Below are positions 15,536-56,350 of a stretch of 64,000 bases of DNA, one piece after another. The first letter of the stretch is position 1. Each line of letters begins with the position of its first letter. Under the pieces are notes generated by a model. The model saw only the letters and a list, made by a program, of their open reading frames with translations. It did no database searches and had not been told where the DNA came from. Location: NCBI RefSeq assembly GCF_011045215.1, contig NZ_CP049201.1, one strand, 5' to 3'. The translations under genes were made by a program, and so were the position numbers. The stretch is from Escherichia coli (GTDB lineage: Bacteria > Pseudomonadota > Gammaproteobacteria > Enterobacterales > Enterobacteriaceae).

Positions 15536-17531
<1,996 letters not shown>

Positions 17532-40340: not shown

Positions 40341-41473
40341 GACTGAAGATTCTCCGCAAGCCATGATGCCAGCTCGCCCGGTGTCATGGCGGCTATTTGT
40401 GCGCCGACATTTACCAGCGCCTGGGCCGTATCGTGGTCATAGCAAGGCGTTGCTGTGCTATCGAGCGCTGCCAGTCCCAGCACTTTGATGCCGCTCTGGA
40501 CACACTTTTTCACCTGATGCGTCAGTAATGATGATGAACCCCCTTCGTAAAAATCGCTCACGAGGATAATGACGCTTTTCGCTGGTTGTTCAATAAGTTG
40601 CCGACCATATTCCACGGCACTGGCGATATTGGTTCCGCCGCCTAATTGCACTTTCATTAATAACTCTACCGGATCGGCAACGTCTGCCGTGAGATCAACC
40701 ACGCTGGTGTCAAACGCCACCAGATGGGTACGAATGCCGGGTAACTGCCATAAACAGGCCGCCATCACCGCAGAGTGGATCACCGAATCGACCATCGAGC
40801 CGCTTTGATCAACCAGTAAGACCAGTTGCCATTGTTCGCTTTGGCGTTTAATGCGGCTGTTAAAGCGGGGGGATTCGATATACAACTTGCCGTGTTGCGG
40901 GTGCCAGTGTTGCAGGTTGGCGCGCAGAGTACTTTTGAAATCAAAGTTTCGCGCCAGTGGAATAAATGAGCGGCGACGGCGATCGCGGACACCAGAAAAA
41001 GCCTGACGAACTTCCTTTGCCAGTCGAGCCATAATTTCTTCAACAACCTGGCGCACTATCCGGCGGGCGGCAGCCAGTACTTCGGGATTCATCAGATGTT
41101 TGGTGTGCAAAACGGCGCGTAGCAGGCTTTCAGAAGGCTGCATACGTTCCAGCACGTCGAGATTCGTCACCACATCTTCAATGCCATAGCGCAGTACGGC
41201 ATCGCTTTCCAGCCGCTCAATCACCTGTTGCGGAAACAGCGTGTGAATACTGTTGATCCACTCAGGGGTGGTGAGATTTGAGCCACCTAATCCACCGGAG
41301 CGTTCACCACGCTGGAGCCGTTCAGGATCGCGCCCATACAGCCACTCCAGCGCGTGGTCTACCTGCCGGGCATTGTCATCCAGCCCACAAAGGGTCGTTT
41401 CTGCCGCTTCGCCAAGAATTAATCGCCAGCGTTGTAGCTCACGGGTAGTCAGAAGATCGTTCAGTTCAGACAT
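40337..41473 (-). CDS. yehP: von Willebrand factor A (VWA) domain protein
   Basis: MIDAS-type motif LVLLVDQSGSM...T...D and a VWA-like fold signature; internal start MSELNDLL gives 378 aa and an 8-nt overlap with the yehM stop. Confidence 0.7.
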   Translation of the reverse strand: MSELNDLLTTRELQRWRLILGEAAETTLCGLDDNARQVDHALEWLYGRDPERLQRGERSGGLGGSNLTTPEWINSIHTLFPQQVIERLESDAVLRYGIEDVVTNLDVLERMQPSESLLRAVLHTKHLMNPEVLAAARRIVRQVVEEIMARLAKEVRQAFSGVRDRRRRSFIPLARNFDFKSTLRANLQHWHPQHGKLYIESPRFNSRIKRQSEQWQLVLLVDQSGSMVDSVIHSAVMAACLWQLPGIRTHLVAFDTSVVDLTADVADPVELLMKVQLGGGTNIASAVEYGRQLIEQPAKSVIILVSDFYEGGSSSLLTHQVKKCVQSGIKVLGLAALDSTATPCYDHDTAQALVNVGAQIAAMTPGELASWLAENLQS

Positions 41474-43745
41474 GGAAAACTCCCCAGTGTTGCAGCGATG
41501 CCAGTGCCTGCTGTTCGAGTTGTTGATGATGTGCAATGGCTTGCGGAGGATAATGCAACGGCATTTGCAGCGCTGAAACAGGAAGCTGCGCAAGCTGGTA
41601 ATGCTCAAGCACCTGATGCGCCAGTGTCCCGCGTTCTCGTGGCGGTAGCCAGGCCATCGCCGCGCGCAAATCGGGCAAGGCGTTAATAAAATCGTCGTCA
41701 CTCAGTTGATTTAAATGACTACTGAAACCGGCGATAAATGCTGGTTGGCAGGCCAATTGATGACGGGCGAGCGCCAGCAAACCGTGCAGCGCCTCGCCGG
41801 ATTGTGCCGGGGATAACTGCGCCAGCATCGTCAGCGCCGCTTCGGCACTGGCGTTGGGATGTTCCAGACGCATCAGTGCGCCAAGAGCCGCGCCGCGATC
41901 CAGCGCCGGGACATGAATCGCCTGACTGCGGCGCTCCAGTAAGGCTACCGCCGCAGAAAGAAAAACGCCGGGTAAATTAACGCCGCTATGTAGATCGCGC
42001 AGGATATGGCAAAGCGCCTGCCAGCTATGCATGTGAGCGTGAAACTCCTTTTCATCTGGTCTGCCGTTAGATTCACACAGCCACAGCGTGCGATCGATAG
42101 CCGCGCATAACGTCGTTTGTAATATCTGCGCGCCTTGCATACCGCTAATTTCATCCAGCCGCCATAAGGCATATAGCACTTCCAGCGCCTGGCCCATTTC
42201 GGCAAATTGATTTTCCTGGGCGATTAATAATGTGAGTTGCTCCAGTAATTGCTCACTAAAGCTCGCCAGGCCCGCTAACGCCGCCTGGCTTAGACATGCG
42301 GTAATGCTGCCGATTCCACCCGCGTCCAGCATATCGGCTTCTAATTTATTGCGTGCGGCTTCCTGGAGCGTGGCACCAAAGCAGGCGGCCTCAATTAATG
42401 CCGCATGCTGGCTAAGCGGCTGGGTTAATTTCCACTGTTCTTCACCGTTACCCGCAAGCGTCAGTGTACTTCCGTGCTGGCGCACAATGCCGGGAATCTC
42501 CAGTATTGCCAGCCGATGTAACACCTGACTTTGCGCTAGTCCATTGGGGTTAAAGCGATTTAAGGTAAGCTCCACCGGAAGAGAGATTGCGGTACGTTCC
42601 AGTTCGCAGGTGACATCTTTTGGCAGAGGCGGTTGTGGCGTAGAAGGGGCAAGTTTACCGAATCCGTCACCCGCTAATGTGTCTATCAACGTTAGCAGAA
42701 TCGGATCGGTGTCGGGATGAATAACTCCGCGATAGCTCCACGGCAACGGCGCGTTCAGGGCTTCTTTAATCAGCGAGCCTGCTATGGCATCCAGCCAGTC
42801 AGTGCGTAACGGTAGTTTATGTCCGCGCAACTGTGCCAGCGCCATCGCATGCAGATGAGCGGCAGCCATATCCGCGGTCGAAGCAGGCAAGTGGTGTTGG
42901 CGCAAACGGGTAAGAACCGTTTTTAGCAGTTGTTCTCCCGCCTGCTGTAAGCCCCACTGCCAGCACCAGCTTTGCCAGACCGGGGCAGGCATTCCTGAAA
43001 GGTATCCTGCCAGCACATCAAGGCGCTTTTCACTGTAGGGTGTGAGATAACAACCTGTAACGGCATCTGCCAGCGAGGGCAATTCTGGCTTGTTAATGTC
43101 CTGCGGGCATTCGCGCCACATTTTTGCCAGTGCCGGAGCGTGCCAGCCACCGCAGACGACTAACACGTCGCCATTATTTTGCTGCACCGCCCATGCAATC
43201 CAGCGAGCCATAAAGGCTTCGCGCTGACGATTGAGTGCATCGCCGGGGAAATCGCCCCGCAGTTGGGCAAAATAGTGCGCCAGTGCAGAGGGTAATGCAG
43301 TTTGCTGGCTTTCATCTTCGAACAAGTGATCCCACAGGGTATCGCTGTTATCCATGCGGGAGGCACGCAGCAGCAAGGTCTGGCTTTCCTCTTGCGTTTC
43401 AGGCGAATCGTCCTCTTCTTCACTCTGTGCCCAGCAAGGCAAATCGATGAAGTAAGTTTGTGCCTGAATACGACGAGCGGCTTGTAGCGCCTGCCACTCC
43501 GGCGAAAATTCAGCAAATGGCGTCCAGGCACCACGCCCGGGGGCTGCACCGTCCTGATACTGGCAATAACTGTAAATAGCTACCGGAAGCTGGTGGGCTA
43601 AAAACAGTTCGTCTACCCGGTCATTAAAATCAGCCGGGCCTTCAATCAACACGTATCGTGGCCGCTGGCTTTCGATTAACGATTTCACCAGCCGGGCGCA
43701 GGCCGGACTATGATGCCGGATGCCGACAATTAACGGCTCGCTCAT
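41466..43745 (-). CDS. yehM: Large (759 aa) protein of unknown function in the MoxR-VWA module
   Basis: Internal start MSEPLIVGIRHH... sits 10 nt after the yehL stop; no domain recognisable by eye. Confidence 0.7.
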   Translation of the reverse strand: MSEPLIVGIRHHSPACARLVKSLIESQRPRYVLIEGPADFNDRVDELFLAHQLPVAIYSYCQYQDGAAPGRGAWTPFAEFSPEWQALQAARRIQAQTYFIDLPCWAQSEEEDDSPETQEESQTLLLRASRMDNSDTLWDHLFEDESQQTALPSALAHYFAQLRGDFPGDALNRQREAFMARWIAWAVQQNNGDVLVVCGGWHAPALAKMWRECPQDINKPELPSLADAVTGCYLTPYSEKRLDVLAGYLSGMPAPVWQSWCWQWGLQQAGEQLLKTVLTRLRQHHLPASTADMAAAHLHAMALAQLRGHKLPLRTDWLDAIAGSLIKEALNAPLPWSYRGVIHPDTDPILLTLIDTLAGDGFGKLAPSTPQPPLPKDVTCELERTAISLPVELTLNRFNPNGLAQSQVLHRLAILEIPGIVRQHGSTLTLAGNGEEQWKLTQPLSQHAALIEAACFGATLQEAARNKLEADMLDAGGIGSITACLSQAALAGLASFSEQLLEQLTLLIAQENQFAEMGQALEVLYALWRLDEISGMQGAQILQTTLCAAIDRTLWLCESNGRPDEKEFHAHMHSWQALCHILRDLHSGVNLPGVFLSAAVALLERRSQAIHVPALDRGAALGALMRLEHPNASAEAALTMLAQLSPAQSGEALHGLLALARHQLACQPAFIAGFSSHLNQLSDDDFINALPDLRAAMAWLPPRERGTLAHQVLEHYQLAQLPVSALQMPLHYPPQAIAHHQQLEQQALASLQHWGVFHV

Positions 43746-43755
43746 GCATCTTTCC

Positions 43756-44844
43756 TCACGGCAGGCGGTGGCGGGCTTGATAATAAGCCTGCCAGTGAGC
43801 TTCTTTATGTGTGGCGACACGCTGTTCGAAGTAACGGCGCAGACGAGCGCGATCTTCTTCGTTATCTTTGACGATGGTTCCGGCAATACAGTCCACCAGG
43901 TCGGCAGGCTCCCCCGCGCGATTCGCTAAAAACCAGGCGCGGACGCCCACGGCGTGGGCCACGTTCACGGCTTCAGCGGTGGACATAATCGCTGTTAGTG
44001 TATCCATTGACGTTTTCTTTTCGCCGTTGGCACGCAGATCGCGGAAGGTGCGGACCAGTAACTCCAGTACCGCGTCAGGCACTTTATGCGGAATACCGCT
44101 ATGGGCCAGCAAACGCGCCGAAGCACTGGCGACAAGCTCCAGCTCTTGGGCGAAATCCATAATCGGAAAGACAGTTTCAAAATCGAAGCGACGCTTTAGC
44201 GCAGCACTCATTTCATTGACGCCGCGATCGCGGGTATTGGCAGTGGCAATAATATTAAAGCCTTCTCGCGCATAGAGCTGACTGGCTTCACCAGTGAGTT
44301 CCGGCACCGTCATCACCCTGTCAGAAAGCATACCTAACAGACAGTCTTGCACTTCCAGCGGTGTACGCGTTATCTCTTCAAAACGGACGATTTTGCCGTC
44401 GCGCATTCCCTGGTAAAGCGGGGCAGGGACCAGCGCTTCCGTTGATGGACCATGATTGATAAGCAGGGCGTAGTTCCAGCCGTACTTGATTTGATCTTCG
44501 GTAGTAGATGCGCCGCCCTGGATGGTTAACCCGGCATCGCCGCTAATAGAGGTTGCCAGTAATTCAGACAGGAGAGATTTTGCGGTGCCAGGTTCCCCCA
44601 CCAACATCAAACCGCGTCCGGTGGCAAGAGTGACTAACATACGTTCGACAGCGGAGGGACTAATCACCACTTTACGGCTAATATTTTGCGCGCTATCGCC
44701 AAGGATAAAAGCACGGGCCGCAGGCAAACTTAACTGCCAACCGGGCGGGCAAGGTGCGTTATCATTTTGTTTTAATTTTGCCAGTTCATCGGCGTATAAC
44801 ACAGCAGCAGGCGGACGCTGCAGATGATTATTCTGCGGTGACAT
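43756..44844 (-). CDS. yehL: MoxR-like AAA+ ATPase
   Basis: Walker A GEPGTAKS is encoded at 44575..44598 (read directly from the DNA); Walker B-like and sensor regions follow; internal start MSPQNNH... preceded by an SD gives 362 aa. Confidence 0.8.
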   Translation of the reverse strand: MSPQNNHLQRPPAAVLYADELAKLKQNDNAPCPPGWQLSLPAARAFILGDSAQNISRKVVISPSAVERMLVTLATGRGLMLVGEPGTAKSLLSELLATSISGDAGLTIQGGASTTEDQIKYGWNYALLINHGPSTEALVPAPLYQGMRDGKIVRFEEITRTPLEVQDCLLGMLSDRVMTVPELTGEASQLYAREGFNIIATANTRDRGVNEMSAALKRRFDFETVFPIMDFAQELELVASASARLLAHSGIPHKVPDAVLELLVRTFRDLRANGEKKTSMDTLTAIMSTAEAVNVAHAVGVRAWFLANRAGEPADLVDCIAGTIVKDNEEDRARLRRYFEQRVATHKEAHWQAYYQARHRLP

Positions 44845-44952: not shown

Positions 44953-44990
44953 AATAAAAAAACCTGCTGGTGAGGCAGGTTCTTTTATTT
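44953..44990. terminator. Bidirectional rho-independent terminator in the yehK-yehL intergenic region
   Basis: 7-bp stem aacctgc/gcaggtt flanked by an A run upstream and a T run downstream, so it gives a U tract on either strand. Confidence 0.5.
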
Positions 44991-45366: not shown

Positions 45367-45475
45367 CGGGCAAATTGAAACGCATCTAAGGGGGAAAACC
45401 GCTTCCCCCTTTAATAAAGCTATACTCGTCATACTTCAAGTTGCATGTGCTGCGACTTGAATTATCTAGAGTATA

Positions 45476-45793
45476 TTATTCTATTTCTTGGTTGAATATA
45501 TTCTGTAGTTCACGATTAAAAATTGCTATTACAGTTTCAGGTGATTCACCTCGTAATTTCCGCTCATCAATACACTCATCTCTTATATAAATCAACGCAT
45601 CATTTATTAGCGGGTCAGCATCTTCTCGATCACGTTGATGAAATGTTGGATGTAGCCGGAATCGCTCCAGTCGATAGACGGAACCTGTAAATAATTCAGA
45701 GCATTTATGGATCTCAAGTCTGAAGGAAAACGGATCTTCAGGTACAGGGACCTCATAATCGTAAATAGCAACCAGCTCTTTTTGCACGATCAT
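45476..45793 (-). CDS. yehK: Small acidic protein of unknown function
   Basis: 105 aa ORF 60 bp downstream of yehI on the same strand. Confidence 0.6.
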   Translation of the reverse strand: MIVQKELVAIYDYEVPVPEDPFSFRLEIHKCSELFTGSVYRLERFRLHPTFHQRDREDADPLINDALIYIRDECIDERKLRGESPETVIAIFNRELQNIFNQEIE

Positions 45794-45853
45794 CGCTTTC
45801 CCCGCTGGTAAGTCGTGTTGATAACGGGCAGTTGCATCACTGCCCGCTGTGTT

Positions 45854-48800
45854 TTAATGGAAAATGACGTCAGCTGCGCTTAACGCCTCACTCAAATCAA
45901 ACACATCGAGTTCGGCAAAAGTGACGGATTTATTGTTACGGTAAACCCGAAGAGAATGGAAGCTCATCAGCGCTTTGCTATCAGCACTGTAGTGGTTAAA
46001 ACCGGGTGAAAACTTAAGGACCAGCCGGTACTCACCCAGGTCATAGACAAATGCGTCCTCATAGCCTGACTCCCAGCCTTTGTATCGCATTCCCATAAGT
46101 TGCCCAACGGTAGCGGATTTACCTTCCCAGCGAGTCAGGCTGTTACTGGTTGACTCGTCAGGTGTGAGCAGCACCGTGCGGCGCGACAACTGGCGAAAAG
46201 GCGGCATAATTTCGTAATCGGCAAAAAGCTGTGCAAATTCACTGCGCATTTCTACTGTCATTTCTAACGGGTGGGCAATGCCAATCAGAGCGTCCGCAGG
46301 CAGGTCAATTGGCTCATCTTGCGCATTGCAGAACTCCCCCTCTGCGGCCACACGAAAGGCGTTGAGTAAACAACGCGGTTCATTTGCCGGATAAACCCCC
46401 CATATTAATCGCTGGGTAACCAGACGGGTAAAGGGATGATTAACAAACAGAGAATGAAAATCTGCCAGCGACCAGCGTCGGGTGGTACGTAGGGCCGTTT
46501 CAAGACGCGGGAGCAGGTTTTTGCTCACCTGAGTGGCATCTTTTTTTAGCCCTTTTAGTTGGGCCAGTGCCTCGGGCGCTTTCAGTTGATCGTCATCGGC
46601 GCGCAACCGGGGAACGCTTTTCTGGCGAACGTTTTGCTGATCAAAGATAATCGGGTTGAGGTTTTCATCGAAGCGAACGGTAAACTGCCGGGGACCAAAA
46701 TCAAAAATCAACGCCTGCGGATCATCAAGGCCAAGGGTTGGGACTAATCTGTCCGCTAGCTCTTCCTGGCTTAGCCCGCGATTTTCTGCGACCACCTGAA
46801 GAAATTCCGCCGCGTTATCACGTAAGGGGCGGGATTTAGCCCGTTGCGATATATGATGCAGCTGTATCAGCGCCATATCATTATTCATCAGGGTAAGGAT
46901 GTTCAGGCCGCTGACAGCACGGGCAGATTTGCCTTCTTGTGGCCAGGCGAGGATCTGTGTCGTCAGATCCCGTGCCGTGCTTTCGTCACCAAAGAGACTT
47001 AACGCCAGAAATGCCCAGTTGTCTTTTGCGGGGGCACCAGCTTGTTGCCACGCAGTGAAGAGATCCCAGGCAAAAGCTGCCAGCGTTTGTGGCTGGCAGA
47101 ACGTTTTCAGTTGTTCCAGCCCGCTATAAAAACGTCCCCCCTGGGTAAAGCGCAGCATTTCGCCGAAAATTTCCAGAGCGTCATCGGTAACAGTTTGATT
47201 ATTAGTGATAAGGCGCGGCCTGGACCACATTTGCGGATGCCAGAAATCAGGGGCTTTTGGAATGCGTGCCGGGTAAATCTCTATTGGACTCTGTTTAAGT
47301 AATTGTTCCAGGGCAGGCCATAGATCTGTACGCTGCCAACGATTGGCTAAAGTTTGTAGCAATTCGCCATGCCCATGTTCGTAAAGTAAACGCAGGGCAA
47401 GTAATGCAGCTTCGCTTTTATCGCTGGATTTGGTGAAGACAAGAGGGATAAGTGCAGTAGCCGTATGTTCCGGCCAATGTAAAATCCACTGGCGAGCCAG
47501 ATTACGCTGGCCCGCAAAACGGTGCCAGACGCGGGCAATGGGCAGGGCCAGTTCTGTTGCGCCGAAATTTAAAATTAACGGAAATGTTTCTTTTGGACGA
47601 TGTGAAAAAGCCAACAGCAGACCTGGTAGCGCATCCAATCCGAGGATACTGAGAAAATAGTCCTCACCCGCGAACAGATGCTTTTTCTCATTGATACGCA
47701 GCCAGAAGGTCAAAGCTATCTCACGCGGCAACTGTGCCAATAAATACAGGTTCCAGACACTCTTTTCCGGACGATAACGTGAGTAGTTGTCATTTTCCCA
47801 TATGTTAATTAACGCTTCTACGTGACCACTGCGAAGCGCCTGTTCTGCTAATGGTGCTTCCGGGGAGTTCCAGCCATTCAGGATCTCTTCAACCCGCCCC
47901 TGGTAGTAATGCCACTCAACAATGAGTGAATTGCGTGCAGCATCCAGTTTTCCGGGGAGTATATAATTCAAAAACAGCCATACATCATCCCCAAAACCCA
48001 GTTCCTGTAATACAACTCGCCCACTTTTTTGTTCCATGCGTTCCGCAAGAGATTCCGTGCTGAAATAACGGGCAGGCTCAGTGGCGGCAAGCCTCTCTCG
48101 TTCGCCTGGTTGCCAGTAAACTTGCGGAGTTAATTCGAGCCGTGCCAAATCAAGACGTGGAGCTGTCATTTTTTTCTTACTACGCCACGGTGGTGAAACG
48201 AGGATTTCAGGCAGATTGCTGTTATCGGTGCCATCAATAACCGGTTTTGGCAGTGCCGATAAATAACTCTTCAGCACTGCCCTGGCTTGAGTACTTAACC
48301 ACGGCATCACTTCTGCTGCCAGTTGTGGCTGCGATGCCATCAGCGTTTGTAACAGCGTACGCCAGTATTCATCGCGTGCTTTTTGCTGTGCAGGCAGCTT
48401 TTTGTCTTCGATGATTGGATAACCAGGGCGGGCTGGTGGTTCTGTTAACGCCAGCAGTTCTGCCAGTGCGGCGAGCGTCGCATGGGGGAAGTTTTTATGG
48501 TATTTAGCTACACGTTGCAGGCTGGGTTTGTTTTTATCAGCCACCAGTAGCAAGGTGCGGATGACTTGCGGATGGTTAATTTGTACCAGCAGACTGCCGC
48601 AATCTTCTTTATAGGCATACATCGCGAGGCGCGGAATGGCTGCCAGTCCTTGTTCGCGCAAAAGGGCGGCGCAGGCCGCGTAGCCGAAGTGGTTTTCATG
48701 CGACATGTAGCTGGCTTCTCGATCGCTAAATATATCCTGGCTCCAGTAGTGTTCGAGTTTTCTCACCGCTGTGGGGTCATTAGCTACAACTTTTAACCAC

Positions 48801-49486
48801 TCCTTAGAATGAAAATGAGTTCGCGGGCATTCAAGGCCTACCAACTCATTGGCTATTTCTGGTTTTTCCGGGAGGATCAGCGCAATAAAAGGGCGGCGAA
48901 CTTTGGTTATTCCTGGTAGTGCGGCAATGAGTTTGTCGGCGCAACGCTGCCAGCAGCTTTCCTCTGCCAGAGAGAGGTGTTTACGCAGTCGGAGATCGAA
49001 TTCGTTATAGGTTTCTGAGCGATAACCATAGCCATAGTCCTCGTTCTGATACTGCAATGTGACTACCAGAGGATCACTCTCATAACACCGTGCAATAAAC
49101 TGGCGTGCAATCACCACCTCAGTCGCATATTCCAGCCCCTCTTGTTGGACGATTTCGTCGAGCAACTGTTGGCTGTCATTTTGCGCGATACAGGCTAGCG
49201 CCGCCATTGTCCGGGCCGGGATTGAGGGTTTGTGTTCGCCGATCAAGTTGATGGCCTGCGTGATGGCGGACTGCCACTCCAGTGAAAAATTTTCATAACG
49301 CCAGACAATGTTTTTTTTCTTCTCAGCTTTTTGTAGCAATTCATCACCCAGTGTCTGAATGATGCTTTCAGTGATAACAGGCACTGGTTCGCCCGGCCAA
49401 TTGCGATGGCTGAGTGGTGTTTTACCCTTTTTATATTTCAGTTCCAGTTGGGCGTTATCAGCCAGCCACGGTAATTCCTTGTCCAT
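45854..49486 (-). CDS. yehI: Giant DUF4132-family protein (MolR paralog lacking the N-terminal WGR segment)
   Basis: 1210 aa; C-terminal ~450 aa aligns by eye with the C-termini of the two upstream paralogs. Confidence 0.8.
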   Translation of the reverse strand: MDKELPWLADNAQLELKYKKGKTPLSHRNWPGEPVPVITESIIQTLGDELLQKAEKKKNIVWRYENFSLEWQSAITQAINLIGEHKPSIPARTMAALACIAQNDSQQLLDEIVQQEGLEYATEVVIARQFIARCYESDPLVVTLQYQNEDYGYGYRSETYNEFDLRLRKHLSLAEESCWQRCADKLIAALPGITKVRRPFIALILPEKPEIANELVGLECPRTHFHSKEWLKVVANDPTAVRKLEHYWSQDIFSDREASYMSHENHFGYAACAALLREQGLAAIPRLAMYAYKEDCGSLLVQINHPQVIRTLLLVADKNKPSLQRVAKYHKNFPHATLAALAELLALTEPPARPGYPIIEDKKLPAQQKARDEYWRTLLQTLMASQPQLAAEVMPWLSTQARAVLKSYLSALPKPVIDGTDNSNLPEILVSPPWRSKKKMTAPRLDLARLELTPQVYWQPGERERLAATEPARYFSTESLAERMEQKSGRVVLQELGFGDDVWLFLNYILPGKLDAARNSLIVEWHYYQGRVEEILNGWNSPEAPLAEQALRSGHVEALINIWENDNYSRYRPEKSVWNLYLLAQLPREIALTFWLRINEKKHLFAGEDYFLSILGLDALPGLLLAFSHRPKETFPLILNFGATELALPIARVWHRFAGQRNLARQWILHWPEHTATALIPLVFTKSSDKSEAALLALRLLYEHGHGELLQTLANRWQRTDLWPALEQLLKQSPIEIYPARIPKAPDFWHPQMWSRPRLITNNQTVTDDALEIFGEMLRFTQGGRFYSGLEQLKTFCQPQTLAAFAWDLFTAWQQAGAPAKDNWAFLALSLFGDESTARDLTTQILAWPQEGKSARAVSGLNILTLMNNDMALIQLHHISQRAKSRPLRDNAAEFLQVVAENRGLSQEELADRLVPTLGLDDPQALIFDFGPRQFTVRFDENLNPIIFDQQNVRQKSVPRLRADDDQLKAPEALAQLKGLKKDATQVSKNLLPRLETALRTTRRWSLADFHSLFVNHPFTRLVTQRLIWGVYPANEPRCLLNAFRVAAEGEFCNAQDEPIDLPADALIGIAHPLEMTVEMRSEFAQLFADYEIMPPFRQLSRRTVLLTPDESTSNSLTRWEGKSATVGQLMGMRYKGWESGYEDAFVYDLGEYRLVLKFSPGFNHYSADSKALMSFHSLRVYRNNKSVTFAELDVFDLSEALSAADVIFH

Positions 49487-49495
49487 GCTCTTTCC

Positions 49496-52400
49496 TTATT
49501 CAAACAGGGCTTCAATATCGTTAATTAGCTCGCTGGCGGTGATGGCATCGAGTACGGAGAACAGCGCTTCCTGTGTTGAATTACTCCCCCAGCCATAGCT
49601 TTCCGCTTTGCCTTCCCATAGCCACAGCTTGCTTAAGAGCTGCTCAGCGCTAAGTTCGGCTGGTGACATACCCACTGCAAAGCCTTCATCGATTTCCATG
49701 ATTAACGACCAGCGGCCCAGAGGTTTGATCATCCAGCCGATCCAGCCTCCATCCTGTGGTTCGCCCTTTATCCAGCCTTTATTCGCCAGCCCCATTACCC
49801 GACCGCTCGGGCATTTTCTGCCTGCCCAGCGGGTCAGTTCGCTGGCGTTGCGCTCGGCTTCTGTCAGGGCGTAACTGTTACGGTCAAGCTGGCGGAACGG
49901 TGGTAACAGTTCGTAGTCGGCAAAAAGCTGACCAAAGGCGGCAGCATCCGTCGGTGATATTTCCAGAACGTGAGGAATACCAATAGAGATATCGCCTTCC
50001 GGCAGGGTGAAAAGATCATCGTCAGCGGTGCTGTAGCTGTTATCTTCCGCTACGCGAAAGCAAGCCTGCAGCTGGTTTTCGGCGCTATAAACGCCCCAAA
50101 TCAGACGGCGGGTTAAGTGGCGAACCAGCGGATGCTCAACCAGGAAGAGCTGAAAGTTTTCCGGTGACCAGCGGCGACGCAGGCACATGGCGGATTCCAG
50201 CCTTGCTACCTGCTGGGCGGCGACGGTACGCGCATCTTTTTTCAGCAGTTTGTAGCGGTTAACAGCATCGTTCGCCTGTGATTCATCATCGCTTTTGTTT
50301 GGTTTGGGCAGGTCTTTCAGACGGCTGCCAGAAACATCACGCACAAACGGTTTTAAGGTTTCATCAAAGCTGACGGTGAACTGGCGTGAGCCGAAATCCA
50401 GCAGCAACGAACCGTTATCATCCAGACCGAGATCCGGTGCTAACCGATCTTCAAGCTCTGCCACCGTGAGTTCGCGGCTTTCGGCAATGTCGGCAATTTT
50501 TTCTTTTGCCCGCTCCTGTAATGCTTTGAATTTCAGTTTCTGGGCAATACCGTTAAGCTGCATCAGGGCGATATCACTACCGATAGCGGCGAGAATATCC
50601 AACCCAACGGTGGCGCGTTTATGCTGGGATTCACCAGGCCAGGCGCGTATTAATGGCGTCAGTTTGCGGGCGGTGTCATCGTTACCAAGAACGCCTAACG
50701 CAGTGAACGCCCAACTCTCTTTCGACGGTGCGCCCGCAGTCAGCCAGGCGGTAAACAGATCCCAGGCAAATTCAGCCAGTGAGTCGGCGGTACAGGCATC
50801 TTTCACCTGCAATAATCCCGGATACAGGGCCTCTTCCTGAGGGAAGCGGAGCATTTCACCGAGGTGCTGGAGTGCGCTATCTGGCAGTACCTTGCTGCTA
50901 TTTTTGAGTTTCGGGCGAGTCCATAATGGAGGTTGATAAAACAACGGTAAAGGGGGGATTTTCGCCGGGTATTTACCCACAGGACTGTTGTCGTTATTTT
51001 TATTTTGAGTTTCCCAGGGCGGCGAGACTAGTACCATTGGTAGAATTTCTGAGTTTGCAAAATCTTCATTGCGACTATTCAGCAATTGCTGACATTGTTG
51101 CAATAAATTTACCGCTTGCGACGATAATCCGATGACTAATTTTTCGACCAATAAAGGATTTGCATTAAGTAATGAAACCAGCAACGTATGTTTGCGTTTA
51201 TCATCTTTTTTTACCAATGCTTCGGCTAATGCCGCTATCGTGGCAGAAGGAAAATTTTCGGCACTTTTTATTAGTCGTTCATAACAGCGTTTATTAGTAT
51301 CGGCGGCTTCGATGAGTGCCGTAATGGCCAACGGATGATTAATACATTTCAGTACGTCACCGCAATTATCTTCTTCAGCATAGGGAGCCAGGCGAGCCAG
51401 TGCCGCTATACCTTGCTCCCGTAATACCGTAGCTGACCAACTGGCACCATAGGTGTTAAATACATCAATGTATTGATAGTTCTCCAGTATTTCGAGCGTG
51501 AATGGATCTGTCGCTACCAGTTTCAACATTTCAAGTTGTGGAACATCTGCGACCTGGTGTAAACGATGTACGATCTCATGGGCCACTTCGGGTATTTCTG
51601 GCATTAAAATGGCAATTAACGGTTGGCGATAGAGTGATATATCTGGTAACGCAACGAGTAATTTTGCAATGCAATTTTGCCATACTTCTTCTTCTGCTAG
51701 TGATAAATGTTTACGCAGACGTAAACTAAATTTGTCGTTATTCCTTCTATAACTGTCCTTGCTGCTATCTGCATAATTAATAAAGAAAGTCAAATGTTCA
51801 TCTTTATAGTCAAAATCGAAATCAATTTGCCACCAGAAGATGACAGTTTCAGTTGCGTATTCGATACCGAAGGTGCTTACAATTTCATCCAGCAACTCGG
51901 ATGAGGTTTCATCATTCCAGCCCTGACAAAAACATATTTCCAGAAAAGTAAGTACCGCCATAGTACGCGCGGGTATCTTAGTCTTTTGGGCCTTAATTAA
52001 GCTGATTGCCTGGCTAATCGCATCAGCCCATTCATCAGAGCATGAGCTGTAATCGAAAGTCAGATTTTTATAATAATGATAAGTACGATTTGCCAATCGG
52101 GAAATTAAATTTTGTTTCTCGGGTTTGGTTGGTTTTTTTACTGGCTCTCCCGGCCAAAGGCGGTGGCTGAGGGCATGGCGGGCAATATTCGGGGGAAGAA
52201 TAATGGGATCGTTGTCTGCCAGCCAGGGTAAACCATTAGTTGCTGCCTGGCGATTTATTGAGGCTTTTTCCTCTGTGACCAGGACTTTCTTTGCTGAGGC
52301 ATCATGTGAGTGAGCGTTAGCGTCTACTTGCTCCACATACCCCTTCTTCACCTTCTCCGCAATCAGCTTCAGTGCTGCTTTTTCCGCCGCCGCAGTATCT

Positions 52401-52528
52401 GCAAAGCTTTTTACCTGACTTTGCCCGTTGGTACCGACTTTACCCCAGTTAATATGCAGCTCGTTTCCCTGCTGCTCCACCGCCCAGAATTTATGTGATT
52501 TTTCGTCCTGATAAATATAGGTTTTCAT
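49496..52528 (-). CDS. WGR-domain / DUF4132 protein, middle MolR-family paralog
   Basis: 1010 aa; N-terminal 65 aa nearly identical to the upstream paralog; C-terminal half ~70% identical to it; central part AT-rich and divergent. Confidence 0.75.
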   Translation of the reverse strand: MKTYIYQDEKSHKFWAVEQQGNELHINWGKVGTNGQSQVKSFADTAAAEKAALKLIAEKVKKGYVEQVDANAHSHDASAKKVLVTEEKASINRQAATNGLPWLADNDPIILPPNIARHALSHRLWPGEPVKKPTKPEKQNLISRLANRTYHYYKNLTFDYSSCSDEWADAISQAISLIKAQKTKIPARTMAVLTFLEICFCQGWNDETSSELLDEIVSTFGIEYATETVIFWWQIDFDFDYKDEHLTFFINYADSSKDSYRRNNDKFSLRLRKHLSLAEEEVWQNCIAKLLVALPDISLYRQPLIAILMPEIPEVAHEIVHRLHQVADVPQLEMLKLVATDPFTLEILENYQYIDVFNTYGASWSATVLREQGIAALARLAPYAEEDNCGDVLKCINHPLAITALIEAADTNKRCYERLIKSAENFPSATIAALAEALVKKDDKRKHTLLVSLLNANPLLVEKLVIGLSSQAVNLLQQCQQLLNSRNEDFANSEILPMVLVSPPWETQNKNNDNSPVGKYPAKIPPLPLFYQPPLWTRPKLKNSSKVLPDSALQHLGEMLRFPQEEALYPGLLQVKDACTADSLAEFAWDLFTAWLTAGAPSKESWAFTALGVLGNDDTARKLTPLIRAWPGESQHKRATVGLDILAAIGSDIALMQLNGIAQKLKFKALQERAKEKIADIAESRELTVAELEDRLAPDLGLDDNGSLLLDFGSRQFTVSFDETLKPFVRDVSGSRLKDLPKPNKSDDESQANDAVNRYKLLKKDARTVAAQQVARLESAMCLRRRWSPENFQLFLVEHPLVRHLTRRLIWGVYSAENQLQACFRVAEDNSYSTADDDLFTLPEGDISIGIPHVLEISPTDAAAFGQLFADYELLPPFRQLDRNSYALTEAERNASELTRWAGRKCPSGRVMGLANKGWIKGEPQDGGWIGWMIKPLGRWSLIMEIDEGFAVGMSPAELSAEQLLSKLWLWEGKAESYGWGSNSTQEALFSVLDAITASELINDIEALFE

Positions 52529-52540
52529 TGTTAAATCCTT

Positions 52541-55500
52541 TTAATCAAACAGTGATTCAATGTCGTTAATCAGCTCGCTGGCGGTGATGTCGTCGAGCAT
52601 GGAGAAAGTGGGTGAGGATTGTTTACCATAGCGATCATAAGGGGCGGTGATTTTTACGCTTTCGACAGGCAGCAGGTCGCTATACCCCGTTTCGCCATAA
52701 ATTAATGAAAAAGGTTCCGTTTCAAGTTCGAGAGCACCATAAGGGGTAGATTTGCGCATCGCATAGACGCTGCCGCTTTCTTCCAGACGTTGCCAGCCTC
52801 GGCGTTCCAGCCCGACAATGCGTCCGGCCTGGCAGAGACGTCCGTTCCAGCGTGACAATTCATGGACATTACGTTCGTTATCAGCAAGGTGGTAACTACC
52901 ACGTTCGAACTGTTGGAAAGGGGGAAGCAGTTCGTAATCAACGTAAATTTGCCTGAATGCAGCGGCGGATTCAGGGGGGATTTCCAGCACATGCGGTATA
53001 CCGATGTTTCCTGCTGGCAGCGTGAATAACTCATCCTGCGCATCGCTGTAAGTGCTGTCTTCTGCCACGCGAAAACAGGTGATAAGAGCGTTTTCATCGT
53101 TATAACCCCCCCATAACAGCCGTCGGGTTAAGTGACGTACCAGCGGATGCTCCACCAGAAACAGGCGGAACTGCTCTGCCGTCCAGCGTCTGCGCTGGCA
53201 CATAGCCTGTTCCAGACGGGTAATTTGCTGGCTGGCGATAGCACGAACATCTTTTTTCAACTGTTTGAAGAGATTAACTGCGTCAGTTGCCAGTGTTTTA
53301 TCATCGCTCTGGTTTGGCTTAGGTAAATCTTTCAGGACTTTGCCGTTTGCATCGCACACTACAGGTTTTAAGGTTTCGTCAAAACCAACGGTGAATTTGC
53401 GGGGGCCGAAATCCAGTGTCAGCGAGCCACTGCTATCAAGCCCTAAATCTGGAGCCAGGCGGTCTTCCAGTTCAGCCATAGTCAGCCCACGGTTTTCAGC
53501 AACTATGTTGATTTTCTCGCGGGCATGTTCCTGTAATGCTTTGAATTTAATTTTTCGCGCGATGCCATTAAGCAGCATTAGCGCAACATCGCTGCCAATA
53601 TCAGCTAATACATCCAGCCCGGACACCGCCCGTTTATGCTGGGATTCCCCAGGCCAGGCGCGGATAAGCGGGGTTAATTTACGCGCGGTGTCGTCATTGC
53701 CTAAAATCCCAAGCGAAGTAAATGCCCAGTTTTCTTTTGCGGGTGCGCCAGCTTCTGTCCAGGCGGTATACAGATCCCAGCCAAATTCAGCCAGTGATTC
53801 GCGGGTGAAGATTTCTCTAATGATATCCAGCCCAGCGTAGGCGGTAATGTCGCGAGGAAAGCTCAGCATAGTGCCGAGGTGGCGCATAGCGTCATCTGAC
53901 AGAGGCAGGTTGTTACTTTTAAGCCGTGGTCTGCGCCACAAGGTGAACTGATAAAAGCCGGACAGTGGGGCGATTTTAGCGGGATATTCTTCCAGTGGGT
54001 CGCTATCGAACAATGTTGCCAGCGCAGCTAAAACATCAGGTTGGTTGTATCCCTGGGCGATTTCCTCAATCGTTTCTCGCTGGTTTAAATTCACCAGCAG
54101 ACGAAGCGCCTGGCGGGCACAATCACGATCTTTTCCCTGTTTGCCCAGGGCCACAGGAAGTAGCCCGGCGGCGGCATGGCGTGGGTAGTCAGTTAGCCAG
54201 TTTCGCGCATCTTCATAAGACATTTTTTTCTGTAGCTGTTGCGCCATCGGTAAGGCCAGTTCACTGACACCGAGGAAGAAGGTGAAGAAGCACAGGCGTC
54301 GTGGATTACGTTGCAGACAGGTCATAAATGCAGGTATGGCGGCGCTACCAAAAATTGCCAGAATATTTTCCTCACCAGAGTAGTTATCTTCTTTGACTAT
54401 CTGGTTAAGAAAAGAAATGGCCTGTTGACCAGGCAGGTAACAGAGGGCCATGAGATCCCAGCTTTTGTATGCATTGTTATGGTATTGCGCAAATTCAGCA
54501 TTGAGTGCTGGAAAATCGAAGCGTAGCAGGGCATCAACGGCGCTTTGTGGGGCCGGAATTTTTTCGTATATTTTCTCTCCGCTTTCCCGCCATTTTTCAA
54601 AACCAAGATGCCACAGTATTTGTTGCTCCGGTGTAAGCGGTATTAATTGTTTCTCCCAGCTTGCTTTTTTCATCGGCGGCAGGTCGGTAAACAATGTTTG
54701 TTTTGTCGCCTGCTGTTGGGCTATTTGCTGGAAGCGGGTGACAAGGTAAGTACGGGTTAGTCTTTTGGCAATCTCGGGAGTGACATCAGAAACAGAAGGA
54801 ACTGGAAGCACAGGAAGATCAAACACAGGCGTATTTTTCTTTTTCTCTTTGGTCATCCAGGGCGGCGAAACAAGCAGTTGTGGCAACATATCCGCAGTGG
54901 CGTATTCACACACTTCAGTCACAGGTTGCAGGCGACATTCAGATAAGATGCCAGCGGCTTTGGCATTCACCCAGGGAATGACGTCGCATACTAACTCTGG
55001 CGTGGCGGTAATCAGTTTGACAAGCGCTTTACGCCACTCTTTATCTTCATGTATTGCCAGCAAAGTAGCATAAGCCGCAATAGCCGCAGCGGGATGCTTT
55101 TGACTGGCCTTGCTTAAGTATTCCAGGTGCTTTTTCTTACCAATTACACCGAGGATCAGAATTTGAATCGCATCCGGGTGATTAGTTTTCCATAGCCATT
55201 TGACAAGATTTTCAGTCTCGCTGATGCGTTCGAAGAGATAAGTGGGATTGTCAGAATGGTCTTCCGTAAACTCAAGAAGTATCCGGCTTACACCGCGCAC
55301 CCCATTATTTGCCAACAACATTGCCAGATAAGCGCGAAAATTACGAAAATCACGATACAACGGTGGGAAGTCGTATTTTTCCACTGTACTCAGAGCAGTA
55401 TCATCGGTTATCACCAGTCTTAACCAGGCCATCGCCGGGACGTTTTGGTCTGCATAGCGTAGAGCTATAGCATGGGCGATATCCGGGCGTTCAGGGAGCA

Positions 55501-56350
55501 GTAACGCCGCAAAAGGTTGCCGTGCGGGGGATAGCGTCGGAATGGCGGTGAGTACTTTATCTACACAGCGTTGCCACTCATCTTCTGAAGCGAGTGAAAG
55601 ATGATGACATAGACGTTGATGCCAACTAGGTAGCGATTCTGCTTCGTGATTAGGTGGAATGATGGTGGTTACTGCGCCTTTTACTGGTTTATATTTGAGT
55701 TGAAGGGCAAAAAGGGCGATTTCAACGGCGCTTTCCAGACCACAGCGAATGACTAAGTCATCGACCAGTTCATCTGCAGAGTAAGAGTTCCAAAAACTCC
55801 AGAGCAATGCTGCATCAGATTGCGCACTCCCTGTCTGTTGATTATCCAGAATTCGCCTTTGTAACTCAGCAAAAGCCTGCTGCCAGTTTTCAGGATAAGA
55901 GCGGTAATTGTTGTCGGGATCATATGCCCTGGTGTTATCTGCAATACGCTTCCATATCTCACCGTCTTTGCGCAGATAATTGATCTCTCTGGGGCGAGAG
56001 CGATGAGGAAAAGCAAATCGGTTAATATCGTCAGTTACCGGAATAACTGCATCATCAGCCAGCCACGGGCGTTGGTTTTTACTCTCAGGGGAAGATTCAA
56101 CTTCAGGAGTGGCTTTGGTGATGGGGGAGATATGCACGTTTGCTGAAGCATTTTCCACATAGCCTTTTTTCGTTTTCTCTGCGATCAGCTTAAGCTCCGC
56201 TTTTGCCGCTGCCGCAGCATCTGCAAAACTTTTTATCTGGCTTTGCCCTTTGGTGCCAACTTTTCCCCAACTGATATGCAACTCGTTTCCCTGTTGCTCC
56301 ACCGCCCAGAATTTATGTGATTTTTCGTCCTGATAGATAAAGTGTCTCAT
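52541..56350 (-). CDS. molR: WGR-domain / DUF4132 protein, intact MolR-like
   Basis: 1269 aa uninterrupted ORF starting MRHFIYQDEKSHKFWAVEQQGNELHISWGKVGT... (WGR-like); lies between metG and yehI, where K-12 carries a molR pseudogene as I recall. Confidence 0.75.
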   Translation of the reverse strand: MRHFIYQDEKSHKFWAVEQQGNELHISWGKVGTKGQSQIKSFADAAAAAKAELKLIAEKTKKGYVENASANVHISPITKATPEVESSPESKNQRPWLADDAVIPVTDDINRFAFPHRSRPREINYLRKDGEIWKRIADNTRAYDPDNNYRSYPENWQQAFAELQRRILDNQQTGSAQSDAALLWSFWNSYSADELVDDLVIRCGLESAVEIALFALQLKYKPVKGAVTTIIPPNHEAESLPSWHQRLCHHLSLASEDEWQRCVDKVLTAIPTLSPARQPFAALLLPERPDIAHAIALRYADQNVPAMAWLRLVITDDTALSTVEKYDFPPLYRDFRNFRAYLAMLLANNGVRGVSRILLEFTEDHSDNPTYLFERISETENLVKWLWKTNHPDAIQILILGVIGKKKHLEYLSKASQKHPAAAIAAYATLLAIHEDKEWRKALVKLITATPELVCDVIPWVNAKAAGILSECRLQPVTEVCEYATADMLPQLLVSPPWMTKEKKKNTPVFDLPVLPVPSVSDVTPEIAKRLTRTYLVTRFQQIAQQQATKQTLFTDLPPMKKASWEKQLIPLTPEQQILWHLGFEKWRESGEKIYEKIPAPQSAVDALLRFDFPALNAEFAQYHNNAYKSWDLMALCYLPGQQAISFLNQIVKEDNYSGEENILAIFGSAAIPAFMTCLQRNPRRLCFFTFFLGVSELALPMAQQLQKKMSYEDARNWLTDYPRHAAAGLLPVALGKQGKDRDCARQALRLLVNLNQRETIEEIAQGYNQPDVLAALATLFDSDPLEEYPAKIAPLSGFYQFTLWRRPRLKSNNLPLSDDAMRHLGTMLSFPRDITAYAGLDIIREIFTRESLAEFGWDLYTAWTEAGAPAKENWAFTSLGILGNDDTARKLTPLIRAWPGESQHKRAVSGLDVLADIGSDVALMLLNGIARKIKFKALQEHAREKINIVAENRGLTMAELEDRLAPDLGLDSSGSLTLDFGPRKFTVGFDETLKPVVCDANGKVLKDLPKPNQSDDKTLATDAVNLFKQLKKDVRAIASQQITRLEQAMCQRRRWTAEQFRLFLVEHPLVRHLTRRLLWGGYNDENALITCFRVAEDSTYSDAQDELFTLPAGNIGIPHVLEIPPESAAAFRQIYVDYELLPPFQQFERGSYHLADNERNVHELSRWNGRLCQAGRIVGLERRGWQRLEESGSVYAMRKSTPYGALELETEPFSLIYGETGYSDLLPVESVKITAPYDRYGKQSSPTFSMLDDITASELINDIESLFD

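What the first reader, a model, noticed from the sequence alone, without database searches (positions are those of the whole stretch)
45854..56350. Tandem array of three giant (1010-1269 aa) WGR/DUF4132 paralogs immediately upstream of yehK-yehLMPQ
Three co-directional ORFs are separated by only 9-12 bp. The upstream two begin with a near-identical WGR-like N-terminus (YIYQDEKSHKFWAVEQQGNELH..WGKVGT). All three share a conserved C-terminal module of about 450 aa (for example ...LAEFAWDLFTAW..AGAP.K..WAF..., ...FADYE..PPF.Q...). I recall only a molR pseudogene plus yehI at this position in K-12, so here molR appears intact and there is an extra middle paralog. Tandem diversified paralogs of a putative nucleic-acid-binding protein next to an ATPase module are a hallmark of sensor or specificity components in conflict systems.
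Basis: partly seen in the sequence, partly recalled or inferred. Interest (0 to 1): 0.72.

Follow-up and report, generated by a model that had tools for sequence, protein, structure and literature searches.

The report
Tandem WGR/DUF4132 genes feeding YehLMPQ ATPase
Three giant related genes sit in a row in this E. coli chromosome; they are real, their front halves vary unusually much between strains, and they belong to an uncharacterised five-part ATPase gene set conserved across several bacterial phyla, whose function is still unknown.

Summary
Three co-directional minus-strand ORFs (1269, 1010 and 1210 aa; gaps of 12 and 9 bp) are paralogs. A and B carry WGR plus DUF4132; C (yehI) carries DUF4132 only.

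The K-12 comparison needs correcting. The K-12-type single gene ('molR') is a chimera of the first ~165 nt of A and the body of B. The extra gene here is therefore the metG-proximal A, found in about 30% of complete E. coli genomes.

The window's B is a rarer allele (7.6% of genomes). Its C-terminal 495 aa are 95% identical to other B alleles. Its N-terminal ~450 aa are only 44-48% identical, low in GC, and lack the ~240-aa central helical segment.

Linkage to yehLMPQ is strongly supported. DUF4132 genes (1 to at least 10 in tandem) lie next to MoxR AAA+, DUF5682, VWA and SWIM genes in Beta-, Gamma- and Alphaproteobacteria, myxobacteria and Streptomyces.

Structure models show a WGR domain, a helical solenoid and a non-catalytic alpha/beta C-terminal domain. 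The best reading is that these are exchangeable recognition or adaptor subunits of a MoxR-vWA machine.

A conflict role is plausible but unproven. There were no PADLOC hits and no phage homologs, and the neighbouring genes are housekeeping.

The parts
52541..56350 (-). Paralog A (1269 aa): WGR, N-terminal helical solenoid, central helical segment and DUF4132 C-module. This is the copy absent from K-12-type strains.
   Evidence: ORF. Pfam WGR 6-69 and DUF4132 1003-1186. It is 91%/85% identical to gene A of SE15/AR_0149 and 44% to the K-12-type gene. The A-specific DNA is in 1643/5426 genomes.
56154..56350 (-). 5' WGR-coding repeat of A. This is one partner of the recombination that produced the two-gene (K-12) state.
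   Evidence: The first 165 nt of the T43/K-12 gene match A at 162/165 and B at 138/165; the next 40 nt match B at 37/40. The upstream DNA is continuous with the metG-molR spacer of two-gene strains.
49496..52528 (-). Paralog B (1010 aa): WGR, divergent N-terminal solenoid and DUF4132 C-module. It lacks the ~240-aa central helical segment. Its C-half is orthologous to K-12 molR/yehH.
   Evidence: The C-terminal 495 aa are 95% identical to other B alleles; the N-terminal 520 aa are 46-48% identical. Sliding-window identities. AF2 model with pLDDT 84.6.
50971..52326 (-). Allele-specific N-terminal cassette of B (aa ~68-519), with a GC dip to 0.41-0.44.
   Evidence: Nucleotide homology to other E. 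coli loci breaks at 50970 and resumes at 52327. GC profile. This cassette is in 410/5426 genomes. Found only in Escherichia; the next-best relatives are 44-46% identical.
45854..49486 (-). Paralog C = yehI (1210 aa): no WGR; solenoid, central segment and DUF4132 C-module.
   Evidence: It is 91-97% identical to YehI of other strains and is annotated yehI in RefSeq relatives.
45476..45793 (-). yehK (105 aa), a small Escherichia-restricted ORF downstream of yehI.
   Evidence: An HMM hit was found only in the Escherichia loci L012 and L013. No family match.
43756..44844 (-). yehL: MoxR-type AAA+ ATPase (AAA_5) with intact Walker A (GEPGTAKS) and Walker B (VRFEE).
41466..43745 (-). yehM: DUF5682 protein. 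Its N-terminal ~330 aa have many invariant polar residues and may be a hydrolase domain.
   Evidence: Pfam DUF5682, E 6e-99. Conservation.
40337..41473 (-). yehP: VWA (CoxE-type) protein with an intact MIDAS motif (DQSGS...GGGT...SDF).
38337..40340 (-). yehQ: protein with SWIM zinc fingers; CxC...CxH motifs at residues about 77-88 and 174-184 of the ORF.
   Evidence: Pfam SWIM, E 1e-3. Conserved Cys/His residues. RefSeq annotation.

Best explanation
The three genes are alternative, non-catalytic recognition or adaptor subunits of a five-component MoxR-vWA ATPase machine. The other components are YehL (AAA+), YehP (VWA/MIDAS), YehM (DUF5682) and YehQ (SWIM).

Each paralog has two parts. The first is a conserved C-terminal module: a helical bundle plus the alpha/beta DUF4132 domain. 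This probably docks on the shared machinery, possibly by offering the invariant acidic loop LPKPxKxDD (B residues 741-748) to the YehP MIDAS site. The second is a fast-diverging N-terminal part: an ARM/HEAT-like solenoid, preceded in A and B by a WGR domain. By analogy with PARP WGR domains, this part would bind a nucleic-acid end or nick, or another ligand, and would set what the machine acts on.

ATP hydrolysis by YehL would then remodel or release the bound complex. Output may run through the conserved N-terminal domain of YehM.

Gene number changes by unequal recombination in the conserved WGR-coding 5' ends. Three genes is the older Escherichia state, and the K-12 two-gene state is an A/B deletion chimera. 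New specificities arise by swapping N-terminal cassettes.

Shown: paralogy, domain content, synteny, the mosaic alleles and the recombination junction. Inferred: docking through the C-module, specificity in the N-half, nucleic-acid binding, and the biological role.
For: - Paralogy and domains.
- Synteny: the DUF4132 genes are co-directional and adjacent to MoxR-DUF5682-VWA-SWIM in Hydrogenophaga and a 'Mycobacterium talmoniae' assembly. The same holds in 50/70 genome loci, and in 23/29 loci with at least 7.5 kb on both sides. It also holds in Streptomyces. In Agrobacterium vitis the DUF4132 gene sits inside the operon.
- Copy number: 1 (33 loci), 2 (8), 3 (7), and 8 to at least 10 in Massilia, with a single ATPase module wherever the downstream end of the array was captured.
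- Conserved C, variable N: in every array the C-modules are more alike than the N-parts, for example 45% vs 30% here and 62% vs 44% in Massilia.
- Sharp allele boundary: among E. coli B alleles the boundary between a variable N-half (31-83%) and a conserved C-half (93-100%) is sharp.
- Motor integrity: the Walker and MIDAS motifs are intact.
- Selection: the genes are under purifying selection, with dN/dS 0.12-0.26 overall and 0.05-0.14 for WGR.
- Recombination junction.
- Ancestral state: the three-gene state is present in E. whittamii and another Escherichia lineage.
Against: - There is no direct evidence of physical interaction or of any ligand.
- YehI and many paralogs lack WGR, so nucleic-acid sensing cannot be general.
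- B lacks the central helical segment that most family members keep, and it may be impaired.
- The DUF4132 proteins could equally be clients rather than adaptors.
- In Escherichia the array is separated from yehLMPQ by yehK and a toxin-antitoxin locus, and yehLM is H-NS-silenced in K-12. Co-expression is therefore not assured.
- The MIDAS-loop idea rests only on conservation.
Confidence: 0.45

Rival explanations
1. Anti-phage or anti-mobile-element immune system. The WGR/solenoid paralogs are a repertoire of invader sensors. On detection, the MoxR-vWA pair activates an effector (YehM or YehQ) that stops infection.
For: - N-halves are hypervariable, with alleles 44-60% identical at one locus within a species.
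- Tandem expansions reach at least 10 copies.
- Pseudogenes, IS and transposon hits are frequent. Examples are K-12, O157:H7, SE15 yehP, AR_0149 yehL/yehM and ST131 TnMB1860.
- yehLM is H-NS-silenced.
- Taxonomic distribution is patchy.
- There is a precedent in the MoxR-vWA ternary conflict systems (PMC7159879).
- A type I toxin-antitoxin is inserted in the locus.
Against: - No PADLOC family matched any of six proteins.
- There is no homolog in 50,697 phage genomes, and homologs are rare on plasmids.
- Sampled neighbours are housekeeping genes (topA, dnaG, rpoD, rpoH, ung, metG); only one RHS gene was seen.
- The chromosomal position is fixed in essentially all E. coli.
- No nuclease, TIR, protease or pore-like effector fold was recognised.
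- Gene-wide dN/dS is below 0.3.
Confidence: 0.22
2. Client model. The DUF4132 proteins are the substrates of a MoxR/VWA maturation chaperone, in the way CobN/ChlH, Rubisco, NorB or CO dehydrogenase are for CobST/ChlID, CbbQO, NorQD or CoxDE. Each paralog would have its own cellular (housekeeping or stress) function. This would fit the legacy label 'molybdate metabolism regulator'.
For: - YehL is AAA_5, and YehP is VWA_CoxE with a weak hit to a cobaltochelatase subunit model.
- The proteins are large (1000-1400 aa), which recalls CobN/ChlH (own knowledge).
- Neighbours are housekeeping genes and the position is stable in E. coli and Comamonadaceae.
- The genes are under purifying selection.
- The legacy name still appears in databases.
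Against: - No cofactor-binding or catalytic fold was found in the models.
- A housekeeping client is not expected to have N-halves 44-60% identical between strains, or to expand to 8 to at least 10 copies.
- The genes are dispensable and often broken.
- The two extra conserved partners (DUF5682, SWIM) have no counterpart in the known maturation systems.
Confidence: 0.2
3. Evolutionary debris. The array is a duplicated, decaying gene cluster under relaxed selection with no present function. The variation reflects drift and recombination.
For: - Pseudogenes occur in K-12 and O157:H7, with frameshifts in yehK, yehP, yehL and yehM in various strains.
- The array is reduced to two genes in about 70% of genomes.
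- B lacks a conserved segment.
- dN/dS is 5-20 times higher than for metG/yehL.
Against: - Three intact ORFs of more than 1000 aa are present here.
- dN/dS of 0.12-0.26 is well below 1.
- All 17 invariant C-domain residues are retained in all three paralogs.
- The same five-gene set is conserved across Proteobacteria, Myxococcota and Actinomycetota.
- The family has 5682 cluster representatives.
Confidence: 0.08

Closest known systems
E. coli K-12 molR (yehF + yehH pseudogene) and yehI, annotated 'WGR and DUF4132 domain-containing protein' / 'DUF4132 domain-containing protein YehI'
   Same: Same chromosomal locus between metG and yehK-yehLMPQ. C is the yehI ortholog (95-97% aa). The C-half of B is the molR/yehH ortholog (95%)..
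   Different: K-12 has two genes, one of them broken. Its molR is an A(5')/B chimera. The window has an intact extra gene A and a B allele with a different N-terminal cassette and no central segment.
MoxR-vWA-centric ternary conflict systems (VMAP, iSTAND, FtsH and beta-propeller types; Kaur, Burroughs, Iyer and Aravind 2020, PMC7159879)
   Same: The core is a MoxR AAA+ plus vWA pair encoded with additional large, variable, partly alpha-helical proteins proposed to sense targets. The components diversify.
   Different: - None of the defining third components was found.
- The partners here are DUF5682, SWIM and DUF4132/WGR, which that paper does not mention (0 occurrences).
- YehP carries no effector domain.
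- The system occurs in unicellular Enterobacterales.
MoxR/VWA maturation chaperones (CbbQ-CbbO, NorQ-NorD, CoxD-CoxE, CobS-CobT with CobN, RavA-ViaA)
   Same: An AAA_5/MoxR ATPase is paired with a MIDAS-containing VWA protein, acting on a large partner protein encoded nearby (own knowledge of these systems).
   Different: No enzyme client is recognisable. There are two further conserved partners. The putative partner is multi-copy and hypervariable.
WGR domain of PARP1/2/3 and of bacterial WGR proteins (PDB 2ra8, 2eoc, 2cr9, 4dqy)
   Different: There is no ADP-ribosyltransferase, ligase or other catalytic domain attached. DNA-break binding is not shown. Paralog C lacks the domain.

Membership tests
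Pfam WGR (PF05406) | Significant match to the WGR profile and the WGR fold | tested here: met
Pfam DUF4132 (PF13569) | Full-length match to the 179-position profile | tested here: met
   All three match model positions 1-179 or 3-179, with E 4e-49, 9e-52 and 9e-47.
DUF4132-MoxR-DUF5682-VWA-SWIM gene set (defined here from synteny) | DUF4132 gene(s) adjacent and co-directional with AAA_5, DUF5682, VWA_CoxE and SWIM genes | tested here: met
   All are present on the minus strand of the window, 38337-56350. The same set is in 23/29 well-flanked loci and in Streptomyces and Agrobacterium.
MoxR-vWA ternary conflict systems (Kaur et al. 2020) | MoxR AAA+ plus vWA co-chaperone pair | tested here: met
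   YehL is AAA_5 with Walker A/B; YehP is VWA_CoxE with MIDAS.
MoxR-vWA ternary conflict systems (Kaur et al. 2020) | Third component is VMAP, inactive STAND, FtsH or a beta-propeller; effector domains are fused to the vWA protein | tested here: not met
   Pfam and NCBIfam find only DUF5682, SWIM, WGR and DUF4132. YehP is 378 aa with VWA only. The paper does not mention these domains.
Known or candidate anti-phage defence systems (PADLOC-DB v2) | Match of the component proteins to a PADLOC model | tested here: not met
   There were 0 families for A, C, YehK, YehL and YehM. B gave only a 50-residue marginal hit (E 0.0047) to WGR_XIII.
Defence-island / mobile-element cargo | Recurrent location next to defence genes, or on phages and plasmids | tested here: not met
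   Among 20 sampled neighbours were topA, sohB, dnaG (x2), rpoD, rpoH, ung, a signal peptidase and regulators, plus one RHS gene. There were no phage hits and hits in 32/72,556 plasmids, mostly megaplasmids or mislabelled chromosomes. The sample is small.
MoxR/VWA maturation chaperones with an enzyme client | A recognisable enzyme or cofactor-binding client encoded with the pair | tested here: inconclusive
   The DUF4132 models show no enzyme-like fold. YehM has enzyme-like conservation but no assignable family.
TraB/PrgY/TIKI-like hydrolases (for YehM N-domain) | Profile-level homology to PF01963 family members | tested here: inconclusive
   The motif order GxRHH...IEGP...RExxMA...CGGxH parallels YbaP GSIH...VEAD...RNLAW...GALH. 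However, hhalign probability is below 1% and Pfam shows only DUF5682.
PARP-type DNA-break sensors | WGR coupled to an ADP-ribosyltransferase catalytic domain; binding of 5'-phosphorylated breaks | tested here: not met
   There is no ART or other catalytic domain by Pfam or fold search. DNA binding is not testable with these tools.

The most novel reading that the evidence does not exclude
A widespread, so far undescribed MoxR-vWA-driven surveillance system. In it, a recombining tandem repertoire of WGR-solenoid-DUF4132 proteins acts as interchangeable sensors of foreign or damaged nucleic acid (or of invader proteins). These sensors would feed one shared ATPase/VWA/DUF5682/SWIM output module, making a bacterial counterpart of a germline-encoded receptor repertoire. 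E. coli populations would maintain deeply divergent sensor cassettes by balancing selection.
Probability: 0.2. Interest if true: 0.85.

Novelty: new variant of a known kind. Interest (0 to 1): 0.58.

Why it matters
yehI, molR and yehLMPQ belong to the uncharacterised part of the E. coli genome.

This work shows that they form one conserved five-component MoxR-vWA gene set. Its largest component is multiplied in tandem, from 1 to at least 10 copies. Within E. coli that component carries N-terminal cassettes as divergent as those of different genera.

This gives a concrete and testable architecture: a conserved docking module, a variable recognition module and a shared motor.

It also explains the K-12 'molR pseudogene' as a recombination derivative, and it identifies natural strains with an intact three-gene locus (PapM-32-1-like) as the right material for experiments.

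If the conflict reading holds, this would add a new class of immune sensor array. If the client reading holds, it would define a new MoxR chaperone pathway.

Tried and rejected
- **PADLOC:** a scan of six locus proteins found nothing usable.
- **NCBIfam:** only the WGR part matched, hitting a Leptospira fibronectin-binding model far below its cutoff; YehL and YehP gave weak GvpN and cobaltochelatase hits.
- **Literature:** four papers mention DUF4132 and none gives a function. DUF5682 has 0 papers. No paper links yehLMPQ to a function.
- **PDB sequence searches:** only WGR matched for the DUF4132 family, and nothing matched for YehM or YehQ.
- **YehM as a TraB/TIKI-like hydrolase:** the motifs agree, but two hhalign tests gave probability below 1%. 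I keep this only as a lead.
- **Recent import of the B N-terminal cassette from a distant donor:** rejected, because the only relatives above 50% identity are Escherichia.
- **General dnaG-rpoD insertion site:** rejected, because it was seen in only 2 loci.
- **Gene-wide positive selection:** rejected, because dN/dS is 0.12-0.26.
- **Promoter and terminator scan:** uninformative beyond the metG terminator and the toxin-antitoxin region.


Full report
**1. What is there**

The window is E. coli chromosome and is 99.9% identical to strain PapM-32-1 over the locus. On the minus strand, downstream of metG (56491-58533), lie three ORFs:
- A: 52541-56350, 1269 aa
- B: 49496-52528, 1010 aa
- C: 45854-49486, 1210 aa

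They are separated by 12 and 9 bp. Next come yehK (45476-45793), a ~565-bp spacer, and then yehL, yehM, yehP and yehQ (38337-44844).

Pfam finds WGR at the N-terminus of A and B (E about 1e-18). It finds a full-length DUF4132 match near the C-terminus of all three (E 1e-47 to 1e-52). C (yehI) has no WGR.

Pairwise BLASTP:

| Pair | C-terminal module | Rest |
|---|---|---|
| A/B | 60% over the last 498 aa | ~85% in the WGR; 36% in the remaining N-half |
| B/C | 45% | 40% |
| A/C | 31% end to end | |

B lacks a central segment of about 240-260 aa that A, C and most family members possess.

**2. Correcting the K-12 comparison**

RefSeq annotations show several states of this locus:
- Most strains, including K-12, have one WGR/DUF4132 gene plus yehI. 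In K-12 the first is split into yehF and the pseudogene yehH.
- Others have two WGR/DUF4132 genes plus yehI.

The single gene of two-gene strains (T43) is 92% identical over its full length to the middle gene B of a three-gene strain, and only 44% identical to A. Its first 165 nt are A-type (162/165 identical to the window's A, against 138/165 to B). The next 40 nt are B-type (37/40 against 27/40). The upstream spacer is continuous with that of A.

The K-12 state is thus a deletion made by recombination between the conserved WGR-coding 5' ends of A and B. Relative to K-12, the extra gene is A, not the middle gene.

A-specific DNA occurs in 1643 of 5426 complete genomes (30%), in identity bands from 81% to 97%. 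The three-gene state is also present in E. whittamii and another Escherichia lineage. This makes it the probable older state.

**3. The window's B is a rare mosaic allele**

Nucleotide homology to other E. coli loci stops at 50970 and resumes at 52327. The interval 50971-52326 (B residues ~68-519) has GC of 0.41-0.44, against ~0.50 around it.

This cassette is present in 410 of 5426 genomes, largely O157:H7/O55:H7 relatives. In a sampled O157:H7 genome B is split and A has an internal stop.

The cassette is 44-48% identical in protein to the corresponding part of other B alleles, whereas the C-terminal 495 aa are 95% identical. A database search finds closer relatives only in Escherichia (88-96%).

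The SE15-type B allele shows the same pattern against the K-12 type: 31-83% identity before residue ~700 and 93-100% after it. A also has a mosaic patch, at 53-58% over residues 481-600 between two alleles.

Orthologous comparisons give dN/dS of 0.12-0.26 for A, the B C-half and yehI. The values are 0.05-0.14 for the WGR, against 0.00-0.02 for metG and 0.02-0.05 for yehL. The genes are constrained, and the diversity comes from cassette replacement rather than from gene-wide positive selection.

**4. Linkage to the ATPase module**

The following loci all place the DUF4132 genes with the ATPase module:
- **Hydrogenophaga:** WGR-DUF4132, DUF4132, AAA_5, DUF5682, VWA_CoxE and a 666-aa protein are adjacent.
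- **A 'Mycobacterium talmoniae' assembly:** three DUF4132 genes precede the same four genes.
- **Species-representative genomes:** a scan returned 70 loci. I annotated their ORFs with HMMs built from the E. coli, Hydrogenophaga and M. talmoniae proteins. Fifty loci contain MoxR. Of 29 loci with at least 7.5 kb on both sides, 24 have MoxR and 23 have all four partners. The exceptions are mainly extra solitary copies in Massilia.
- **Streptomyces:** a linear plasmid carries the same five genes.
- **Agrobacterium vitis:** the DUF4132 gene lies inside the operon, between DUF5682 and VWA.

Copy number is 1 in 33 module-linked loci, 2 in 8 and 3 in 7. In Massilia it reaches 8 to at least 10 tandem genes, with a single ATPase module wherever the downstream end of the array was captured.

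Single-copy systems almost always carry WGR. WGR-less copies such as YehI occur alongside a WGR-bearing one.

In every array the C-modules are more similar to each other than the N-parts are.

The family is large, with 5682 representatives at the 50% clustering level. YehL has intact Walker A and B motifs, and YehP has an intact MIDAS motif.

**5. What the proteins look like**

An AlphaFold2 model of B (pLDDT 84.6) has these parts:
- a WGR domain (residues 1-66)
- a disordered linker (70-98)
- an all-helical repeat region (about 135-500)
- a helical bundle (550-694)
- an alpha/beta region (700-1010)

A separate model of residues 700-1010, built from 82 homologs, reaches pLDDT 95.3.

Invariant residues of the C-domain include an exposed loop, LPKPxKxDD (B 741-748). 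All three window paralogs keep every invariant position.

YehM's N-terminal ~330 residues carry many invariant polar residues. Their order and spacing recall TraB/TIKI-type hydrolases, but profile-profile comparison does not support homology.

YehQ has two CxC...CxH SWIM-type motifs.

**6. Most likely mechanism**

The pattern has three elements: one conserved module, one hypervariable module, and variable copy number upstream of a single MoxR-vWA motor. It is best explained if the DUF4132 proteins are exchangeable recognition or adaptor subunits.

In this reading the C-module is the common handle for the YehLMPQ machinery. The N-terminal solenoid, with or without WGR, determines what is bound. 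In established MoxR-vWA pairs the VWA MIDAS site captures an acidic residue of the partner and the AAA+ ring remodels it (summarised in PMC7159879). The invariant DD loop is a candidate for that contact.

These steps are inferred and none is shown. I put 0.45 on this general architecture.

Whether the biological role is defence or conflict is open:
- **For:** cassette hypervariability, tandem expansions, frequent inactivation by stops, IS elements and TnMB1860, H-NS silencing of yehLM, and patchy distribution.
- **Against:** no PADLOC hit, no phage homologs and few plasmid ones, housekeeping neighbours in the sampled loci, a fixed position in E. coli, and no recognised effector.

The main alternative is that the DUF4132 proteins are clients of a MoxR/VWA maturation chaperone. 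A pure-decay explanation is unlikely given the constraint and the cross-phylum conservation.

**7. Comparison with what is known**

The genes are already annotated (WGR and DUF4132 domain-containing protein; YehI; legacy name 'molybdate metabolism regulator'). The three-gene arrangement is visible in RefSeq, so the array itself is not new.

I could not find any description of the following in the searchable literature:
- the five-component gene set as a unit
- its tandem DUF4132 expansions
- the cassette polymorphism in E. coli
- the chimeric origin of K-12 molR

The nearest described kind is the MoxR-vWA-centred multi-component system. The present set shares the motor pair but none of the defining third components or effector fusions. 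I therefore rate it a new variant of a known kind, with moderate interest (0.58).

Noticed in passing
window 44956-45031 (-) and 45277-45366 (+): A type I toxin-antitoxin sits between yehK and yehL. It consists of the OrzO-P antitoxin RNA (Rfam RF02083, 99.9 bits) and a 29-aa hydrophobic ZorO-like ORF (MDSLTQKLTVLIAVLELLVALLRLIDLLK). This matches the zor-orz locus described between yehI and yehL in O157:H7 and absent from MG1655 (PMC2887945). Only one copy is present here.
   Followed up: partly
window 41466-43745 (-), YehM residues 1-337: The DUF5682 N-terminal domain has invariant residues in the order G8-x-R10-H11 ... E35 ... R175-E176 ... C198-G-G-x-H202. The order and spacing resemble those of TraB/PrgY/TIKI-type proteins such as YbaP. 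hhalign gave probability below 1%, so this is only a lead for an enzymatic output component.
   Followed up: partly
L030 (Comamonas composti) and L026 (Acidovorax MAG); L015 (Erwinia persicina); L052 (Tahibacter harae): In two Comamonadaceae the whole DUF4132-MoxR-DUF5682-VWA-SWIM module lies between dnaG and rpoD. In Erwinia it lies between topA and sohB, and in Tahibacter it is next to ung. The neighbours are housekeeping, often DNA or transcription genes, and the position is not conserved across taxa.
   Followed up: partly
L040+L075 (Massilia rubra NODE_19, contig 53.6-86.1 kb); L017+L042 (M. aquatica); L060+L074 (M. frigida): Massilia species carry 8 to at least 10 tandem DUF4132 genes, most with WGR. 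In the two species where the downstream end of the array was captured (M. aquatica, M. frigida), the array is followed by a single MoxR-DUF5682 (-VWA-SWIM) module. They also have solitary copies elsewhere in the genome.
   Followed up: partly
L085 (Agrobacterium vitis pAvCG678a) 5110-15576: The gene order is AAA - DUF5682 - DUF4132 - VWA - SWIM. The DUF4132 gene is embedded inside the ATPase operon rather than upstream of it.
   Followed up: no
L082 (E. coli O157:H7 strain 4276) 4597-11404: In this O157:H7 genome, gene A has an internal stop and gene B is split into a WGR protein and a partial DUF4132 protein. Only yehI is intact. Other strains show frameshifts in yehK, yehP, yehL or yehM, and IS1 or IS5 insertions in gene A.
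   Followed up: partly
window 43756-44910 upstream region; K-12 literature: yehL and yehM are reported as up-regulated in hns/stpA mutants of K-12, with H-NS bound to the intergenic region upstream (PMC3686432). In ST131 sublineage L1a the blaCTX-M-15 transposon TnMB1860 is inserted into this 'DUF4132 region' (PMC9334617).
   Followed up: no
window 38337-40340 (-): yehQ here encodes about 667 aa, as in most strains (666-667 aa). The K-12 annotation is shorter (1845 nt, 614 aa), which suggests a truncated or differently started K-12 gene.
   Followed up: no
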